Shown in pieces: positions 23,072 through 63,300 of a DNA stretch of 64,000 bases. How positions within the stretch are numbered: position 1 is the first letter of the stretch; each line of letters begins with the position of its first letter. The notes beneath the pieces were generated by a model, which made no database searches, had not been told where the DNA came from, and saw only the letters and a program-made list of their open reading frames with translations. Source of the stretch: Cladosporium halotolerans (taxonomy: Eukaryota). The translations under genes and the position numbers were made by a program. The stretch covers positions 1 to 64,000 of the forward strand of contig NW_027191461.1 of NCBI RefSeq assembly GCF_011745625.1. Direction: 5' to 3'.

Positions 23072-24217
23072 TTAGTAGTAACCTCGGCCTCTGCGTCCTC
23101 TACCCCTTCCGCCTCCACCGTGACCTCCCATGCCACCCTGTTCTTGTTGCATGATGGCGATCTGCTGCGCACTGAGGCCCTCTGTGTTCATGCCAGGGCC
23201 AAAGCCTTGCCCACCGCTTGGTCCAGAAGGCGGCTGGAATTGACCTTGCGGGTGGGGCGATTGGCCTCCAAACCCACCTTGGCCGCCGAAGGCTGGTCCA
23301 GAGGGCGGCTGGGGTGTGTGTCCACCGGGACCACCGCCAGGCATACCACCCATCATAGCCATGAACTGGTTCATGTCCATCTTGCTCGGGTCCATGCCTT
23401 GCGACATCATTTGCATCATCTGGTCCATGCCAGGCATACCGGGTGGTGTGGGTCCGGGCATTCCTGGCATCCCTCCACCAGAGTCTCCGCCCATGCCGAG
23501 CATGGCTTTCATTTGCATGTCCTCGTCTTTCTGCTGAGCGATCGTGCCAGCCATACTCTGTTGGCGTACGCAATACTGTGTCCAAGTGTACTCGTCAAAG
23601 CCGTAGTTGAAGAAATCGGTCTGGTCGGTTCCAGGCAAGCGCCAGAGCTTGGAGTTCTCGGCAAGGTCGGCATCGATGTCAAGGAGTGTTATGGGTTTGT
23701 TGACGCCAGGCCAGCTGGGATTGGCACTGAGATTGACGGTGCTTGTGCGGATCTGAGGAAAGTCTTTGCCCTCTTTACCGCCGTGGGTAGGCGCGCCTTT
23801 GACCGTGGTGGTTGCGGAGGTTCCATGCTCGGTTTTCGGGACTTTTGATGGGGGTGAAGGATCGACTGAAGCAGTGCGATCAAGCGTCGCGGACTGTGGT
23901 TTCGCAGATGTTGCGCGAGGTGGTCTACACGAATGTCAGATGAGAGCGGGCGGTGGAAACTGGGCGCATCACCTACACTGATTCTGCTTTCACCCCCTCT
24001 GGCCTCTCGGTTGTAATTTGAATGTCCTACATATCACAGTATTAGAATCGCATTGCTTGCTATGTATGTGGCAGTGGTCGCGTACATCCTCGCTGTCCTC
24101 TTCCTCCTCGCTCACGTCCATTTGCTCTGCCTTGACCTGAGCGTCGCCATCCGCAGGAGCCTGATCGGCGTGATCCTGGGTGTCAGTGCCGTAAAGATCA
24201 TCCTCTTCGTCCTCCAT
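23072..24217 (-). CDS. FIP1: Pre-mRNA polyadenylation factor Fip1, 2 introns near the 5' end
   Basis: Acidic N-terminus MEDEEDDLYG; Fip1 motif KLWRLPGTDQTDFFNYGFDEYTWTQYC; G/M/P-rich tail with RGG. Confidence 0.93.
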
Positions 24218-24634
24218 TTTGCAGTGTGACGCGAGTAACTGCGAGTCAAATGGTCAATGGTGTATGGATAATGAGTGAAGGTCGAGACAAGGTTGTCTTT
24301 AGCGTCGCACGGCACGCGCCAGGTCAAAGCTCTGTGTCCAAAGTTCGCGCAAGCAACGCGCGAAGCTGCACCTCAAATCAACCTCACTGCATCAACCTTT
24401 TTTGCGCCACACATCCAGCGTCCCTTGTTTCCTGTCTGGTGTCAGATACCCATTGGCAGGCAGCTTTCCGACATCTCTAAGCCCTGCGTATTGTGGTTGA
24501 AACAGTCGCAAAACAGGTGAGCATCCCCTGTGTTTCCTCCCTTCACACGTACCCTCCGCGTCCAGCAGAGAAGCCTGACAGTCGCAGTAAAGAGTCGAGT
24601 GTTCAGAGACATCGAAAGTCTCGATCTTGCCGCA

Positions 24635-26519
24635 ATGGCATTCGGCCGCTCAAACTCTTTGAGCATCAATACTGGCGCAGCCAATACGTTGTACGTTCCT
24701 CTTTCTCTATGTTCACTCCCCAACAATCTTTTTTCAAGTCGGCACCGGTCATGAATGGCATTGCGCCTTTGACTTCACGCAGCGAGTCGCAGCGTGGAAG
24801 CTGGACTTCTTTTTGTGAAGTGCACGGGCTAGTCACCGCCTGCGAAACTCCTTCGGCGCCAAAAGGCCAAGATGCATCGCTGGTTGGAGGAGAGTCCTTA
24901 CGCACGAAATTAAGAAGATCTGGCATGACTGGCTGTCTTCTAGAAGCCGGTGGTTGTGCGCGCGATGCAAGTCTTGGTTATGACCCGTGGCTTGCCAGTG
25001 ACTGGAAATTGCCTGCTACCCATCATCGCTGGTTGCAGAGCCTACCGTTAATGAGATGCGGCCGTTTTGACAATTCCAGCATATTTGCCGAGTCGAACTT
25101 GTTGGACGAGGTCCAAGAAAGAAGCTAACAACATGCAGTGGATCACAGCCAAGCGGGGGCCTTTTCGGCGGTGCCGCATCGACGTCTCAACCTCAGCAGA
25201 GTGGCGGTCTTTTTGGTAGCGGCACCGCTCAGACAAGCCAGCCGCAGGGTGGAAGCCTGTTTGGCAACCAGCAGAGCACCGCACAACCATCTACAGGCGG
25301 TCTGTTCGGCAATAGTCAGTCGAACCAAAACCAACAAGAGCAAAAGCCTGCCGGCGGCGGCCTTTTTGGCGGAGCTCAAACGACCCAGACCCAGCAACAG
25401 AACACCACTCAGCAGCCAGCTGGCGGCGGCCTTTTCGGTGGGCTACAAGCAGGCTCCAGCACTATGAACAAGCCGGCCGGTGGCTCATTGTTCGGCAACT
25501 CTACTACGCAGCAATCGTCGGGTGGTCTCTTTGGCGCCAAACCTCAACAGCCAGGAGCGAGTCTCTTTGGCAACAGCACAACTCAGCCGCAGCCAACATC
25601 TCTTTTCGGTTCTACACAGAATCAGCCCCAGCAACAGCAGCAGCAGCAACAACCTCAGCCTAGCCAAACGTCGCTGCTGGGCGCTTCCCGTTACAACCAA
25701 TCTCAATATCAGCCGTTCGTGACAGGCCGCCTTACCATGGGTCAGGGAGGTGGGGCAGCGCCTCAGCCCACCACCACGCCCGCCACCAAGCTCGATTGGT
25801 CAAATGTACGCAACACTACACGATTCAACGACCTTACCGACGAAGCGAAGCAAGATATCGAGAGGATCGACAAAATGATTTCCACGCAGGAGGAACTTTG
25901 CAAGCAGATCGAGGCATTCCTTCCAAACCATCAGAACGCGCTCGAGACGCTTGGCCCTGACGTTCAGATGATCACCGAAAAGCTCGAAGAAGTCGATCGC
26001 AGCCTTGCGGTCGACGCGCAAGGCGTCCAGCAAGACAAGAACATCACTGAGAGAGACGAGATCGACATTGCGCGCTGCATTCGCATTATCGACAACCTCC
26101 GGATGCCGGCGCAGTATGTCTACCACCCAGCTGCGAACAGCGGCCGCCAACCTCAGCCACCCGCTTGGGATGAGACCTATGATGTGGACCTTGTCGGCAA
26201 CTATTTCCAGCCGCTCACGCAAGACATGGCTAGACTGCTTGCTGGATATTCAAGCAACCTGGCTGAGATCGAAAGCCACATGGGTACCATCGAGCAGTCA
26301 GCAGTGGTGCAGGCGCAACAGCTAGCCGCGGAACGCTCTGGGCTCGGCGGACAGCGTGATGTAGGCGCGGACAGCGTCAGGCAGCTTGCTGACACTCTCA
26401 GAGGCTTCGAAGCAAGCATTCTTGCCGCTGCTGGTAAAGTCGGTGGGTGTCGCGAGGGCGTGAATGAGCTTGTTCTAGGAAAGCTGGGCGGCTCGCAATC
26501 TGCAAGGAGGCCTTGGTAA
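24635..26519 (+). CDS. NUP49: FG/GLFG nucleoporin Nup49/Nup58-like; exon 1 24635-24690, intron 24691-25138
   Basis: MAFGRSNSLSINTGAANT|FGSQPSGGLFGG splices in frame into the 25464 ORF; GGLFG/SLFG repeats; TTRFNDL motif followed by a coiled coil. Confidence 0.85.
24720..25105 (+). ncRNA. Candidate structured intronic RNA (identity unknown)
   Basis: Several complementary segment pairs visible by eye inside an abnormally long intron (see findings). Confidence 0.4.
25630..25652 (+). repeat. CAG/CAA microsatellite encoding polyQ in the nucleoporin
   Basis: cagcaacagcagcagcagcaacaa. Confidence 0.7.
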
Positions 26520-32263: not shown

Positions 32264-34393
32264 ATGGGTCAACTAATGAAGATGAACTGGTTCGGGAGAG
32301 GATTGCGTCTGCAAGTGGCTGTGATGGTCTCTTGTCAGATGGCATTTAGTATGCACCGTCTTACGCCTCTTTGATTGTGCAGGAACCACTGACGACCCTT
32401 TAGTCCTCTTCGGTTATGACCAAGGAGTGTTCTCCGGAATCGTGGGCAACGAGGACTGGCTGAATACATTTGGACACCCCAGCAGCGGACTCGAGGGTAT
32501 AATCGTCAGCATCTACAACCTTGGCGCTTTCTCTGGTTGCATCTTGACTTTCCTTGTGGGCGAGAGGCTCGGTAGACGACTCTGCATGTGGGTCGCGATG
32601 ATCTGGATCGTAAGTTGGAGAAAACATCCGCATGCTCGTCCGCCCAATGTGCTGATATTCGATAGATTGTCGGCGCAATTCTCCAATGCACCTCGTATTC
32701 CGTCGCGCAGATCATGATTGCTCGTTACATCACTGGCATCGGCACCGGTATCGAAACCAGCACCGTCCCCATGTACCAGAGCGAGCTTTGTGACGCGGAG
32801 CGTCGAGGAAGACTGGTTTCTTCGGAGCCACTGTTCGTGGGTGTCGGCATTGTCATCGCGTACTACTTCGACTATGGCATGAGCTTTGTCGAGGGCGGAA
32901 CTGCCTGGCGAGTTCCCATCGCTTGCCAGGTTGTCTTTGCTCTGGTGAGTTCAACCTCAGTGCCTCGGTAAGGTATTGCTATGAAATTCGCTAACCAACA
33001 CGATAAGGTTGTCGTCGTCCTGACATTCGGTGTACCGGAATCTCCACGCTGGCTCTACTCCCATGGCCGTAGCGACGAGGCACTACAAGTGCTCTGCGAA
33101 GTATACGATGGAGACCCTGAGCACCCTCAAGTGGCGAAACAGCAACAAGATATTCTTGAAGCCCTCGCGCTGGAGCGCAGACACGGCGAATACAAGTGGA
33201 GCCAGATCTTCAAGCGCGACGAAGTGCAGACCGGAAAGAGAGTTCTATTGGCGTACGGCATGCAATTCATGAACCAGATGGGAGGTATCAATCTTGTCGT
33301 GTAAGCAACGCCGATCAATTGCTTGGAGTAAGCCTGTCCATCAAGCTAACCACGATACAGATACTTCGTACCATCCCTACTGGAAAATAACGTCGGCCTT
33401 ACTCCGAATCTAAGCCTGCTTATCGGAGGCGCAGTCCAGTGCATGTTCGTCGTCGGTTCCATCTTCCCGACAATGTTCCTCGATCGCTTTGGTCGTAGGA
33501 GACCCATGATGTGGGGATCTTTCGGACTGGGAATCTCTATGATGCTGTTGTCTGTCATGTTGAGCTTCTCATCTCGACCTCAATTCAGCGAGAGCCTGCG
33601 ACAAGGAACATCGTACGCTAGCGTTGCGTTCTTATTTACGTACATGCTAATCTTTGGGTGAGTGAATTTGACGCTTGAGATGGACATCAGATACTAATAA
33701 TGGACGATAGTGCATCTGTGAATTGCATCCCTTGGGTGTAGGTGACGACCAATTTTTTCATCATCTTCTAGATGCTAATGAGACGGACAGATACGTGCCG
33801 GAAATTCTGCCGTTGCAGGCAAGAGCCAAAGGTGTGTTAACGACGCTTCTAAGCTCTTCTGCTACGCAAGCTAACGATTCCACCAGGAACCGCCATTGGA
33901 ATCAGTTCGAACTGGCTATGGGTATCACGAATCACTCTTTGACCCATGAGAACGAGGGCGGCAGCTAACGAGACTCTAGAATTTTGTCGTGGTGATGATT
34001 AGCCCGTCGCTCATCAACAACGTAAGTTTCCTGCCGGCAAGATTACAATGCGTGGTAACATGCTGACCTGTCTCCTAGCTGGGGTGGAGAGCTTACTTCA
34101 TCTTTATGTGCACCAACCTTCTTTTCGTTCCCATTATATACTTCTTCTACCCGGAGACCGCCAAGCTCACGCTGGAGGAAGTCGACTACCTATTCGTGAG
34201 GGACGGACACAAGGGCGTCAAGCAGCTTTGGCACAGGAGCCAGCCGGTGCTGATCAGCTTGAAAGAGGACGTGGGAAGCAATGTCGCTGAAGAGGGGTTG
34301 GCAGACTACGGAGAGACCAAGGGAGAGCAGGAGAAGACTGGCGATGTGCTCAGAGAGGAAAGCGCGGATCACATCGAGGCGAAGTCGCGATAA
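32264..34393 (+). CDS. MFS sugar porter, 9 introns including several very short exons
   Basis: LFGYDQGVFSGI, ERLGRR, VPMYQSE, PESPRWL, NQMGGINLVVYF, DRFGRR, PWVYVPEILPL and PETAKLTLEEVD. Confidence 0.92.
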
Positions 34394-34471
34394 GCGGGCG
34401 CACCGTGTAACATCGCTGGGGAAAGGGAGAGGAGGCAAGATGAGGCCACATATCGTTACAAGTCATACATC

Positions 34472-59332: not shown

Positions 59333-60313
59333 CTACACTTTGACATCCAGCTTGAACCTGTTGAGCGGGCTTCCTCGCACACCAACATCAATCTTGAAGA
59401 CAGCACCTGCATGCTTCGTGCTCCAAGGGTACTTTTCCGGCTCCTCCTCCGCCGCGCTCGTGATCACAAGCTCCGTTCCGCAGAAAGCAGGGCAAGTGAC
59501 GCAGCGTGTGGGCAGCTCGATTTCAGCCAGCTTCTTGCCCTGCGGATCAATGCGGAAAACACGTGCAGTACCGTGGCAGGCGACCCAGAAGTTGCCCTCC
59601 TCATCCTGGCAGTGACCGTCAGGAACACCCCCTTCGACCGGGCACGTGAAGAGAGTGCTGGGCGATGAGAAGTCAATGTCGCCAGTCGCGGGGTTGTAAT
59701 CGTAAGTCGAGATCTTTTGAGTAGGCGAATCGGTGAAATGAACCTTCTTGTCATCCAGGTTCCAGCTGAGGCCGTTGGGGATGGTGACTTGCTTGCGCAC
59801 GCGATGCAGCGAGAGGTCGGAGTCGAGACGAAATAGGATGCCTTCGTCGGTAAGGTTGCCGTTCACAACCGTCGGGTCGTTCATGGTGCCCACGAAATAC
59901 CTGCCCGCAGCGTCGACCGCGCCGTCGTTGCTCCTCATCCTCTCCTCAAGCGTCCTGCCCACGCCGGGCTTTCCACCGCCATCCTCCTTCCTCTCCTCAT
60001 CCGTCCAGAATTTTTTGATCCATCTGGTCTCGCCTGTCTTGCGAGTGTAGATACCATATCCTAGCTTGCCACCGAAAATGAATTCCTCATCAGTGCCCTC
60101 AATGTCGGCGGTGGTACCAATGGAGTACTCCAGCTGCTGCTCCTTCAGTGAAGACTGGCCCTTCTCAAGTTCGACAAAGAAGATCTTTTTGTTGATGATA
60201 TCGACGAAGCGGAGGGTGTTGGTGCTTTTCTCCCAGAAGGGCGCCTCGCCCAGACCACAGGAGGTGGTGAGCCATGGCTCGGTGATGGTGTACTTTTTGA
60301 CTTCGTTGGCCAT
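59333..60313 (-). CDS. SMP-30/gluconolactonase/regucalcin family protein
   Basis: LGEAPFW, RSNDGAVDAAGRYFVGTM, IPNGLSW, PDGHCQDEEGNFWVA and VTCPAFCG..L.ITSA; probable start at MANEVKK. Confidence 0.92.
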   Translation of the reverse strand: MANEVKKYTITEPWLTTSCGLGEAPFWEKSTNTLRFVDIINKKIFFVELEKGQSSLKEQQLEYSIGTTADIEGTDEEFIFGGKLGYGIYTRKTGETRWIKKFWTDEERKEDGGGKPGVGRTLEERMRSNDGAVDAAGRYFVGTMNDPTVVNGNLTDEGILFRLDSDLSLHRVRKQVTIPNGLSWNLDDKKVHFTDSPTQKISTYDYNPATGDIDFSSPSTLFTCPVEGGVPDGHCQDEEGNFWVACHGTARVFRIDPQGKKLAEIELPTRCVTCPAFCGTELVITSAAEEEPEKYPWSTKHAGAVFKIDVGVRGSPLNRFKLDVKV

Positions 60314-63300
60314 GACAGAAGCTTGTGACAGGCTCGCAGCGACTATAAAATGTAAGTCTGTGAAGTAGAGGCACAGTGGCAAAAAGAAAATAGATTCGTA
60401 GAAGTTCCTACTTGTCCATATCAACAGAACAGTGCAACGTCATGTTTGCGGCTCTTTTCCCCACCAAAAGCTGCTGGACCCCTCAAAATGGGACGGCGGG
60501 GCGGCACCGACGGACCGCAACGAAGACCGACGCTCTTTTCGACCACGCCTCTTTCGCATGCTTGTCGACCGCAATCTAGACATAATCGTGATGGTACCTT
60601 ATTGATCGATCGAAACAGCAGCGCAGGGCCGCGAGCCGTACTTGCGACACAAGGCTTGCGGTTCTCGCCGAAAATCGCCTCGCTACAAACGAACGAATGG
60701 CAATAATAAATCCGCCAGATTCTCCATCCAGCCTATTACAGACGAGTGCGCCATTATTACGAAGCAATTTTGAAATTACTGCCGTCCTTGCGAATACGAG
60801 GCGAAACAACAAATCAGCCTTCTCTCCGGCCTTGCTCGGTCGCTCACAGACCTCATCATTGCTTTTCATCTCATCACATCTCCCAAATACACCGAACACT
60901 TCACCGTGCCAACACTAGCAATCACTAAACCCCCTTAGCCCTTATCATTACTGAACCAGCGCATCACCCTCAACACCCAACACCTCAAGCCCCCTTCCCA
61001 TCGATCACACAGCCCGGCGCTTACACACCACGCGCATGCACCCACGCATACGCGCCGTGATCGCCCGCTAACCCCACGCCGCCCTGCATGACACCTCACT
61101 CATGCAATGTGTAAAGACCGCCATGGCGCGCAGAACGCGTCTCCCATCCGCATGAAGGGCAGCGCGCCCCGCCCCACGCAGACATGTATGCAAGACACTC
61201 CGCCCGCCTGGCGAGGCTGACTGCTCTGACAGCCTCGATCCAGGCTTTCAGGGCGCGCGAAGAAACGGCTGCAGCGGGAGCGGCGTGGCACGCCTGGATT
61301 CGACCGAGCGGCCGGTCGGCCGCCTTGCAGACGGTGAGTGACAGCTGCGCTGGGCTGGTTGGCGTGTGTGGCGCGGCGGGGAGGGTGTGGTGTTGCCGCG
61401 CTGGTGGGATTGTGGGAGTCGAGGTGATGATGATGACGACGCCGCGTATGTACAGTACATACGGTGATGTCGACCAGCGCGTCCGTAGCGGCGGGCTCGA
61501 GGCCTGCGTTGGGTCGCATGCGCGGGCGGTCTTGTGACGAGCGATGCATGCGGGAGGGCGTTGAGCGGCCTTGCGTGCTGGGCTGGCTCGTGGGTGTGGG
61601 TTTGATTTGGCTGTTGGTCGTACTGCAGTTGAGGGACTTCGGGAGTGCTGCAGCGTCTGTTGGGTTCGCCCGACTTGGGTGTTACAGGTGCGACGGTTCG
61701 TGGGCCAGGTTTCGCCAGCGCGTGTCAGCGGGGTGTGGTGTGTTCATTTCGGCAGGTCCTGAGTGTCGGTGCTGTGGTAGCTGAGGATGGCTGTTCGTTT
61801 ACGGCACGGTGTTGATTGTACTGGAACGGAAGGGCTTCGGCGGAACATTGTGATGGAGGGTTGGCCAGGATCACAGTCCATCCTATCATTGAGGACTCGA
61901 AAATTTGATCGATGTTGGAATTCATACGCCTACCTATATTCTTCATGAGCTGTCGGCGCTCCCCAAGAGCGAGACGACGTTGGACGTAATGTCAATACTG
62001 CCACGCATCAAACCGGTCATCAAATATCGCTACAAGCTCACGGTACCTGCACTACCCGGCGATACTTGCTCGTACATTGACGCACAAACGAAGGTACCCA
62101 ATGAAGAGCCGCATCGCGCAACCCATACACAAAGAAACGGGGCAGAGTCGGCTACACGCATCTACATCCCACCGTCGCGGCATTCCAGCAAGCCCTCGAT
62201 CGCGTCACACGTAACCGTTCGCCGCTGCGCCGCGAAAACGGGTTGCGCCGTCATCCAGATGCTTTTGGTAAGAGATCCGAGATTCCAGGCGCCACGAGGA
62301 AGGCGGGAGGGATGGAGCGTCGTGCGAAAAGAGTAGGGTCCGGCCGGGCGACTCCGCGTCTACAGTAGTGCGATGGTGGAAGTTGAGTTATTAGAATGAT
62401 GGATTTCGCCGAGCGGGCGAAGTGCGTCGCGTGCGAAGCCGCGTGCTCGTCGTGCCACGTGCGAAACGGCTTCCCGAGCCGTCCAATTCCTTCTGCGCGT
62501 GGCCTTCGCGAGGTATGCACATAGCCGCGGGATTATTATGGGCCGCCGGCGATACTACCGTGTCAATAAAGCATCGTTAGAATTCATACTGACGGCATGG
62601 ATGCCCCCGCTGACGGCGCGCCCTCCGCTCTCTTGTTGGCAGACGGATAACCCGGCTGTTGTCGACGCCAACTGCCGCGCCGCTGAGGCGCTCCATCCGC
62701 GAGACAAGAAGACGAAGCCACAAACGCGCGCGTGCGCAGAACGGGAGCTGCAGCCGTGCCAGGGCTGCGTATCAAGGTTCGCAGCTAGAAGGTGGCTTCT
62801 AGCTGCGAACTCATTTACACGAGGCGATGGCGCCCCGCAATATCGCAGATAACGTTTCTGACATGATTACGAATTTATGACTTTCAAAAAAAGCCGCAGA
62901 TCAGGCCCCAGCGACGAATACAAAAGCGGAGCTGCTAGAGAAATTGGGGTGCCGTCAAACACGTGGACTTCGCGCGCGCCGGGGATTTGTACCAGGTGAA
63001 ACTGCAGCACACTTTACCCGGAGGAGCGGGTTCGCCCTAGATACAGTACTACCGTTCTAGGTGTACCATACCGCACAGGAGCTTTCCCCGCCCCTTCCAC
63101 TGTGCATGCAAGCCACCGAACGGAAGCTTGCGCCATTTCCACGCGCTCGCTTAGATTCGCGGCGCAGGAACCGTTTCGGTTTTGGGAGCTGCAAGGCGGG
63201 TGGCTGGTTGGGGCGTAAGCGTGCCGGGGAAAGGAGGATGAGGGTGGGCGGGTGGGAAGCTGGGTGGATGCGAGGGCCGCGCCGGCCTGCGTGGGCGCGC

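What the first reader, a model, noticed from the sequence alone, without database searches (positions are those of the whole stretch)
24691..25138. 448-nt highly structured first intron of the NUP49-like gene: candidate hosted ncRNA or splicing-regulatory fold
Other introns in this window are about 40-100 nt. This one contains many visible helices. A basal stem pairs CCAACAA (~24720-26) with TTGTTGG (25099-105) and TCGGCA (24739-44) with TGCCGA (25086-91), which would shrink the effective donor-to-branch distance to that of a normal intron. Hairpin CTTCACGC (24773-80) pairs with GCGTGGAAG (24792-800). CACGGG (24823-28) pairs with CCCGTG (24984-89) and encloses a 16-bp bulged helix, GGCCAAGATGCATCGC (24865-80) with GCGATGCA-AG-TCTTGGTT (24962-79), plus CGCACGA (24901-07) with TTGTGCG (24954-60). 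TAGTCAC (24830-36) with GTGACTG (24998-25004) is a possible pseudoknot, and a 3' hairpin spans ~25028-25080. G-U pairs favour folding of the + strand. ANANNA-type motifs (24907-18) and ACAATT (25070-75) are compatible with a large H/ACA snoRNA. I see no C/D boxes or hallmark motifs of snRNAs, RNase P/MRP, SRP or TPP riboswitches, so the identity is unknown and it may be a new family.
Basis: partly seen in the sequence, partly recalled or inferred. Interest (0 to 1): 0.75.

Follow-up and report, generated by a model that had tools for sequence, protein, structure and literature searches.

The report
Decayed coding intron in Cladosporium NUP49
This long intron in a fungal nuclear-pore gene is probably not an RNA gene but the broken remnant of a protein-coding stretch that many related Cladosporium moulds keep intact, where leaving it unspliced would give a longer, apparently undescribed form of the pore protein Nup49.

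Summary
The 448-nt intron (24691-25138) is real: a close strain's contigs join exactly across it. It is the second intron of NUP49; a 71-nt 5'UTR intron precedes it. No hosted ncRNA: no Rfam match, whole-intron fold z -1.24, no consensus structure in relatives, inner helices have pairing probability about 0. Only the basal stem beats chance, and relatives lack it.

In other Cladosporium lineages this intron is a stop-free reading frame continuous with both exons. It encodes a proline-rich insert with one or two (D/E)APW(L/M)DPxWKPP motifs, with an in-frame ATG 16 codons upstream inside intron 1. Ten of 33 close homolog clusters read through whole; dN/dS is 0.28-0.57. The window keeps a frameshifted relic and has lost that ATG; several other lineages are also broken.

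Best reading: relic of an in-frame retained intron that gives a long Nup49 isoform, like yeast NUP116/NUP100 (PMC7491326). Translation is not shown. A recent splicing-aiding basal stem remains possible.

The parts
24517..24587 (+).
   Evidence: Joint 24513>24585, cut +3, GT..AG in run X3; branch site CTGAC at 24575
24587..24634 (+). Relic of the upstream in-frame ATG (now GTA at 24587-89) and of the 16-codon N-terminal extension
   Evidence: 5 of 6 relative loci have an in-frame ATG exactly 16 codons before the main ATG, between the branch site and acceptor of intron 1; L009 has a 1-nt shift; the window has the same 48-nt spacing but no ATG
24635..24690 (+). Coding part of exon 2, MAFGRSNSLSINTGAANT plus TT (phase 2)
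   Evidence: Spliced product identical to P0069
24691..25138 (+). Intron 2 (448 nt; 450 nt in three other strains): decayed in-frame coding intron
   Evidence: Joint in X3 at depth 169 and a contig through the whole intron at depth 35; 4 stops in the exon-3 frame against 0 in 7 of 7 distinct relative introns
24700..24744 (+). 5' arm of a basal stem specific to this lineage
   Evidence: Pair probability 0.92-0.96 in the two core helices; duplex z -2.94; the 4 listed strain substitutions in this stretch fall on unpaired positions
24773..24800 (+).
   Evidence: Mean pair probability 0.81; strain change C24776T keeps the pair as G-U; conservation in other species not shown
24958..25020 (+). Relic of the tryptophan motif, ARDASLGYDPWLASDWKLPAT, now out of frame with exon 3
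   Evidence: Only domain hit of the relatives' peptide profile in six frames of the 64-kb window (i-E 0.033); only hit of their DNA profile, 24959-25115, E 0.044; about 10 nt missing right after it
25068..25070 (+). Stop codon TGA in the exon-3 frame
25086..25122 (+). 3' arm of the basal stem; overlaps the relic peptide RVELVGRGPRKKLT (relatives: RPDLxGPGPRKMLT)
   Evidence: the arm sequences differ in relatives
25125..25138 (+). Branch site CTAAC and acceptor CAG
   Evidence: same spacing in the other Cladosporium-type introns examined
25139..26519 (+). Exon 3: FG repeats and Nup49 C-terminal helices
   Evidence: Pfam PF13634 E 2e-16, PF21121 E 7e-26

Best explanation
The intron is the pseudogenised remnant of a protein-coding, in-frame retained intron. 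In the ancestral Cladosporium NUP49, full splicing gives ordinary Nup49 (shown by transcript-type contigs). A transcript that keeps intron 2, and also keeps the 3' end of intron 1 (by retention or a start inside it), would begin at an upstream ATG. It would give a long Nup49 with a 16-residue basic amphipathic extension and a 134-262-residue proline-rich insert carrying one or two (D/E)APW(L/M)DPxWKPP motifs before the FG repeats (reading frame and selection shown; translation inferred). Most likely the motif is a short docking site in a disordered region that gives part of the Nup49 pool an extra partner, as the GLEBS motif does in the retained NUP116/NUP100 intron (inferred, about 0.5). The window's lineage lost the isoform: the upstream ATG became GTA, and the insert gained frameshifts and stops. 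The intron stayed long, and unspliced forms still appear at about a fifth of the junction depth in one close strain.
For: 10 of 33 Cladosporium-type homolog clusters (72% identity or more) read from the upstream ATG through the intron to the C-terminus, 10 more start inside the intron frame, 13 are uninformative. Of 6 distinct complete introns in DNA, 3 are 3n and stop-free (789, 789, 405 nt). The exon-3 frame has no stop in 7 of 7 distinct introns (one of them partial); shuffles give this 0-9% of the time each. dN/dS is 0.28-0.57 in 6 of 6 within-group pairs and 0.15-0.62 in 15 of 15 core pairs, with synonymous divergence not lower overall than in exon 3. Nucleotide-only alignments show a third-position excess in 3 of 3 pairs of one group (p 8e-5, 1e-4, 6e-3). 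P, W, W, P and RxDLxGPGxRK are invariant across 8 sequences. L005 and L007 are exact spliced copies of L006 lacking both introns and the upstream ATG. The relic is at the matching place in the window. Intact forms lie on both sides of the window's branch and the motif is also in the L011 group outside it, which favours loss over gain. ATG and insert are both broken in the window and in L009.
Against: No protein, ribosome or read-level evidence; all RNA evidence is contigs, and X3's kind is a guess. Retention was seen only in the window's own lineage, where the frame is dead, and splicing only there and in the frameshifted L006 type; neither was seen in an intact lineage. Breakage is common: 3 of 6 complete introns (L006, L009/L010, L011) and at least 4 of 8 short proteins (P0092, P0094, P0095, P0096; P0090 probably) are frameshifted or stopped, so the constraint is weak or intermittent; some may be assembly errors. 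The third-position excess is not significant in the second group (3 of 3 pairs, p 0.06-0.16). Protein-guided alignments bias dN/dS down, and pairs are not independent. The relic's E-values (0.03-0.04) are modest and lean on position. The window's branch in the tree is weakly placed (94/58).
Confidence: 0.8

Rival explanations
1. Splicing-aiding basal stem (can coexist with the best explanation): after the coding function died, pairing of 24700-24744 with 25086-25122 was selected to loop out the dead sequence and bring donor and branch site together.
For: Duplex z -2.94, 5 of 1000 shuffles, 1 of 142 tiles; pair probabilities 0.92-0.96. The 4 listed strain substitutions in the 5' arm region are all at unpaired positions, and none is listed in the 3' arm. 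The other lineage with both parts broken, L009, is borderline (12 of 300, then p 0.055), while intact-frame introns L003, L004, L008 are not (p 0.36-0.53). Such pairings are known in yeast RPS17B (PMC2536676, start of abstract only).
Confidence: 0.3
2. Same coding frame, other mechanism: the intron frame is used as an alternative first exon from a transcription start and ATG inside the intron, not by retention.
For: Zymoseptoria (P0050, P0072), Cercospora (P0047, P0049) and P0054 have 100-140-residue N-termini in place of exon 2, conserved within each genus, while P0073 shows the usual spliced form. L009 keeps the 3' part of the frame open.
Against: In 10 Cladosporium clusters the frame is open from the ATG upstream of exon 2, which an internal start would not require; the X3 contig spans both intron ends. 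Homology of the Mycosphaerellales peptides to the Cladosporium insert is not established (best shuffle p 0.003-0.05 among 55 pairs).
Confidence: 0.15
3. The open frame in relatives is a by-product of C-rich composition and shared ancestry, with no protein function.
For: Intact introns are C-rich (C/T 1.5-1.7) and poor in stop triplets; many lineages are broken.
Against: Dinucleotide shuffles keep composition yet are stop-free at most 1.3% of the time for the three intact introns; motif residues stay fixed while synonymous sites diverge by 0.6-0.7 between groups.
Confidence: 0.08
4. Hosted H/ACA snoRNA or other new ncRNA family.
For: Excess of short G-U-containing helices; intron sequence present in an RNA-like run.
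Against: No Rfam match; no consensus fold; boxes at chance level and not conserved; 3 of 4 strain substitutions at inner positions paired with p 0.9 or more break the pair; the intron contig runs into both exons, as pre-mRNA would; the orthologous intron is only 104-135 nt in 9 of 9 distant loci examined.
Confidence: 0.04
5. Introner-like element or other mobile insertion.
For: Long, somewhat structured intron in a Dothideomycete (the family description is recalled, not from a call).
Against: Single copy in the genome by DNA search at E up to 10; intron position is shared with distant Dothideomycetes.
Confidence: 0.02

Closest known systems
NUP116/NUP100 intron retention in pre-duplication Saccharomycetaceae (Hurtig et al. 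2020, PMC7491326; section 9 and search passages read)
   Same: An FG nucleoporin gene with an in-frame, stop-free intron that is sometimes retained and carries a conserved peptide motif; good splice signals; later lost in some lineages.
   Different: Different nucleoporin and motif (no GLEBS or other Pfam match). There the intron arose from exon sequence and the event was replaced by duplicate genes. Here the intron position is old, short in distant relatives, the frame is tied to an upstream ATG in a 5'UTR intron, and loss is by decay in place. Retention is not yet shown in intact lineages.
Exitrons / protein-coding retained introns (review PMC5602073, passages read)
   Same: 3n length, frame kept, disordered product with short linear motifs.
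   Different: Exitrons are described as mostly retained, with weak sites, and as arising by intronization; here the spliced form dominates where measured and the origin looks like coding gain inside an old intron.
Intramolecular 5'-3' intron pairing as in yeast RPS17B (PMC2536676; listing and start of abstract only)
   Same: Pairing between segments downstream of the donor and upstream of the branch site.
   Different: Here limited to one lineage, untested, and without compensatory changes.
Mammalian Nup58/Nup45 (PMC2173148, passages read)
   Same: Both are listed as counterparts of Nup49; that they are splice forms of one gene is recalled (Hu and Gerace 1998 is cited there for nucleoporin splicing).
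   Different: No sign of shared origin with the Cladosporium event.

Membership tests
In-frame retained intron (criteria of PMC7491326) | Intron coverage at least 10% of junction reads | tested here: inconclusive
   Contig depth 35 against 169 (21%) in X3, but contig word depth, one run, dead-frame lineage; not measured in intact lineages
In-frame retained intron (criteria of PMC7491326) | Length a multiple of three, no in-frame stop: in the window | tested here: not met
   448 nt, 8 stops in the exon-2 frame, 4 in the exon-3 frame; the 450-nt strain form also ends early (P0096)
In-frame retained intron (criteria of PMC7491326) | Length a multiple of three, no in-frame stop: in relatives | tested here: met
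   3 of 6 distinct complete introns; 10 of 33 protein clusters read through whole
Exitron | Real GT-AG intron with a spliced form | tested here: met
   X3 joint; L005 and L007 against L006
Exitron | Encodes a disordered region with short motifs | tested here: met
   Pro 14-21%, P+S+T+A 41-53%; AlphaFold pTM 0.23 and no fold for the 76-residue core, on a 7-sequence alignment
Exitron | Both forms translated; retained form predominant | not testable with these tools
   No proteomics or ribosome data; where measured the spliced form is higher
Exitron | Origin by intronization of exon sequence | tested here: not met
   Same phase-2 intron is 104-135 nt in 9 distant loci; motif found only in Cladosporium-type NUP49 frames
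H/ACA snoRNA | Match to a known family | tested here: not met
H/ACA snoRNA | Conserved H and ACA boxes | tested here: not met
   4 ANANNA seen, 5.2 expected; ACA at 25070 in 0 of 7 relatives
H/ACA snoRNA | Conserved hairpin-hinge-hairpin fold with covariation | tested here: not met
   RNAalifold -2.25 kcal/mol on the alignable 3' 240 nt; the 5' half aligns poorly with relatives and was not tested this way
H/ACA snoRNA | Stable discrete RNA bound by Cbf5; rRNA target | not testable with these tools
   Only contigs available; no target search run
Introner-like element | Many near-identical copies in the genome (recalled) | tested here: not met
   1 match, itself

The most novel reading that the evidence does not exclude
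The unspliced NUP49 transcript of Cladosporium is a second gene product: one splicing or start-site switch adds both a basic amphipathic N-terminal presequence and a new tryptophan docking motif, sending Nup49 to another place (for example mitochondria) or partner in a life stage that some lineages have dropped. Mycosphaerellales use the same intron for their own alternative N-termini, and lineages that lose the isoform evolve an RNA stem that removes the dead exon.
Probability: 0.15. Interest if true: 0.75.

Novelty: new variant of a known kind. Interest (0 to 1): 0.5.

Why it matters
If the long isoform is made, a core channel nucleoporin has a hidden, lineage-specific form with an uncharacterised conserved motif, a second fungal case beside NUP116/NUP100. 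Intact and broken species of one genus form a natural comparison for its function and for how coding introns are gained and lost. It also explains why NUP49 gene models in this group differ so much in length, and shows that a long structured-looking intron can be a dead exon. I found no report of it: searches returned nothing, and the listings showed no such paper. The library lacks most subscription papers, and I opened no supplements.

Tried and rejected
Rfam at gathering score on the window and 7 relative loci, and at E up to 10 on 24400-25300: 0 matches. Copies in the own genome by DNA: only itself. Own genome with one relative's core peptide: 0 candidates, not even the relic, so this search is too insensitive to exclude paralogs. 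Run search: no RNA holder on record was listed; X20 covered little of the gene and gave nothing usable, X21 and X1 showed no joints. Identity of the motif: no Pfam family, PDB best E 0.66, ESM Atlas best 0.80, within noise. The search of 1.84 billion representatives gave 4 hits: 3 NUP49 intron frames and 1 unrelated repeat protein, P0063, which I set aside. The Zymoseptoria N-terminus found only itself. The 215-codon open frame 24481-25128 has no Pfam match and is read as the relic frame; a possible inner acceptor at 24782 that would join it to exon 2 had no joint listed. The first motif copy could not be placed securely in the window (by eye 24817-24861; one search aligns it elsewhere). Mitochondrial targeting could not be tested beyond charge and hydrophobic moment. 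Three look-ups of earlier findings returned nothing. PMC11694984 has no mention of Nup49 or nucleoporins in its main text; its supplements were not opened and may bear on retention.

Full report
Gene and intron. Exon 3 (25139-26519) encodes FG repeats and the Nup49 C-terminal helices. Its closest homologs are from Cladosporium. The spliced product is identical to the 478-aa NUP49 of C. halotolerans, P0069. Contigs of run X3, a close strain whose kind is only guessed as RNA, join 24690 to 25139 (448 nt, GT..AG, depth 169) and also skip a 71-nt intron at 24517-24587. The finding is therefore the second intron. One X3 contig runs from exon 2 through the whole intron into exon 3 at depth 35, which suggests unspliced transcript at about a fifth of the junction depth; contig depth is a coarse measure. 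Strains X21, X3 and X1 carry two extra bases (450 nt). A Fip1 gene lies head to head upstream in the window, and its core motif is upstream in 9 of the 23 loci, 7 of them distant, which supports orthology.

RNA structure. Rfam gave nothing for the window, for the intron at E up to 10, or for 7 relative loci. The intron folds at -150 kcal/mol, z -1.24; the other strand gives z -0.83; 1 of 32 window tiles reached that z in a rough comparison with 8 shuffles each. Three of the seven named helices are well supported in the ensemble and four have probability near zero. Short helices with G-U pairs are in real excess, also against local shuffles; I have no explanation for this beyond the stem itself. 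The pairing of the intron's two ends is beyond chance: z -2.94, 5 of 1000 shuffles, 1 of 142 tiles. It is not shared: five of six relatives' introns show nothing and L009 is borderline. RNAalifold on the alignable 3' part of 8 introns gives -2.25 kcal/mol. Of 11 listed strain substitutions, 4 hit inner positions paired with p 0.9 or more, and 3 of these break the pair; the 4 in the 5' basal arm region are unpaired. Only 40 of 152 variant rows were shown. ANANNA motifs are at chance level and the proposed ACA is not kept in any of 7 relatives. A hosted ncRNA is unlikely; a recent splicing-aiding stem is possible.

What relatives conserve. Many homologs called from raw contigs are 600-750 aa because they read straight through this intron. 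Of the 33 Cladosporium-type clusters, all inspected, 10 run from an upstream ATG through exon 2 and the intron to the C-terminus, 10 start inside the intron frame, and 13 say nothing. The scan of metagenome contigs gave 23 loci. Eleven are Cladosporium-type: two spliced copies of L006 (L005, L007), one not reaching the intron (L012), one partial (L002), and seven complete, of which L009 and L010 are identical. L003, L004 and L008 (789, 789, 405 nt) are 3n and stop-free; L006, L009 and L011 are frameshifted. The frame continuous with exon 3 has no stop in 7 of 7 distinct introns, against 4 in the window; shuffles do this 0-9% of the time each. In 9 of the 12 distant loci the intron could be seen; it sits at the same place and is 104-135 nt.

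Selection on the protein. dN/dS is 0.28-0.57 over the intron in 6 within-group pairs and 0.15-0.62 in 15 core pairs, against 0.03-0.10 in exon 3; synonymous divergence in the intron is not lower overall than in exon 3, which argues against an RNA-level constraint. These alignments were protein-guided and the pairs are not independent. Nucleotide-only alignments confirm a third-position excess in one group (p 8e-5, 1e-4, 6e-3) but not significantly in the other (p 0.06-0.16), and none between the window and any relative. The insert is proline-rich, has no predicted fold (pTM 0.23), and carries one or two copies of (D/E)APW(L/M)DPxWKPP followed by RxDLxGPGPRK. The motif matches no Pfam family, solved structure or Atlas cluster, and among 1.84 billion representatives hits 3 NUP49 intron frames and 1 unrelated repeat.

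Upstream ATG. In 5 of 6 relative loci an in-frame ATG lies exactly 16 codons before the usual start, between the branch site and the acceptor of intron 1, and no other ATG precedes it in the up to 330 nt examined. Splicing intron 1 removes it (L005, L007). The extension is basic, nearly free of acidic residues and amphipathic in 17 proteins (first 28 residues); this resembles a mitochondrial presequence (recalled), but no predictor was available.

The window is a decayed copy. Profiles from relatives hit one place in 64 kb, the matching part of this intron (DNA 24959-25115, E 0.044; peptide ARDASLGYDPWLASDWKLPAT, i-E 0.033). About 10 nt are missing after it, a TGA follows at 25068, and the end reads RVELVGRGPRKKLT. 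The upstream ATG is now GTA at the same spacing. The 450-nt strain form also terminates early (P0096). Intact forms lie on both sides of the window's branch (P0012/P0013 outside, the large clade beside it), and the motif is present in the L011 group, so loss is the simpler reading, although the branch support is weak (44 rows, short fragments left out). Other broken lineages are L006 and P0092, L009, L011, P0094/P0095 and probably P0090; some may be assembly errors.

How it most likely works. Shown: splicing of both introns; an open, selected frame and an upstream ATG in many relatives; their decay here. Inferred: in intact species a minority transcript that keeps intron 2 and the end of intron 1 is translated into a long Nup49, whose tryptophan motif docks a partner. 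Not shown: translation, retention in an intact species, location, partner. Frequent loss implies a dispensable or stage-limited role.

Comparison. The nearest precedent is the retained in-frame intron of NUP116/NUP100, which carries the Gle2-binding motif (PMC7491326, section 9 and passages). The window fails that paper's frame criteria; intact relatives meet them, with retention untested. It resembles exitrons in frame and disorder (PMC5602073, passages) but not in origin, since the intron is old and short elsewhere. Zymoseptoria and Cercospora proteins show 100-140-residue alternative N-termini at the same junction, conserved within each genus; their link to the Cladosporium insert is not established and I had no DNA for them. 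No paper on this isoform appeared; no supplements were read.

Verdict. The substance is a protein-coding retained intron of Cladosporium NUP49, dead in this genome: a new variant of a known kind, interest 0.5.

Noticed in passing
window 24587-24589: The change that destroyed the upstream ATG also created the AG now used as acceptor of intron 1 in X3, 13 nt upstream of the acceptor used in L005/L007.
   Followed up: partly
P0050, P0072, P0047, P0049, P0054, P0056, P0057 (N-termini): Mycosphaerellales NUP49 models begin with alternative N-termini in place of exon 2; Zymoseptoria and P0054 share a PLFxxMP stretch (shuffle p up to 0.002). Possibly a wider use of this intron as coding sequence, or annotation error for the short ones.
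   Followed up: partly
window about 23500-24225, minus strand: FIP1 lies head to head with NUP49 (Pfam Fip1 E 2e-19); the arrangement recurs in distant Dothideomycete loci.
   Followed up: yes
L003:3196-3201 and P0008: In intact-frame lineages the donor differs (GTTAGT in L003, GTATGC in L004 and L008) yet stays donor-like, which hints that splicing is kept there too.
   Followed up: no
L006:1874-1910: The only frame break in this intron is one base in a short TCT run right after the donor; a slippage-prone site or an assembly error. P0092 shows a similar early shift.
   Followed up: no
window 24691-25138: The dead intron has a C/T ratio of 0.97 against 1.3-1.7 in relatives, as expected for drift after loss of a proline-rich frame.
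   Followed up: partly
L013-L020, L022: Distant orthologs have a further intron inside the FG region that the window's gene lacks (seen).
   Followed up: no
window 34001-34448 and 60001-60448: These tiles had high counts of short helices against shuffles (z 8.6 and 3.1 on 8 shuffles); not examined.
   Followed up: no
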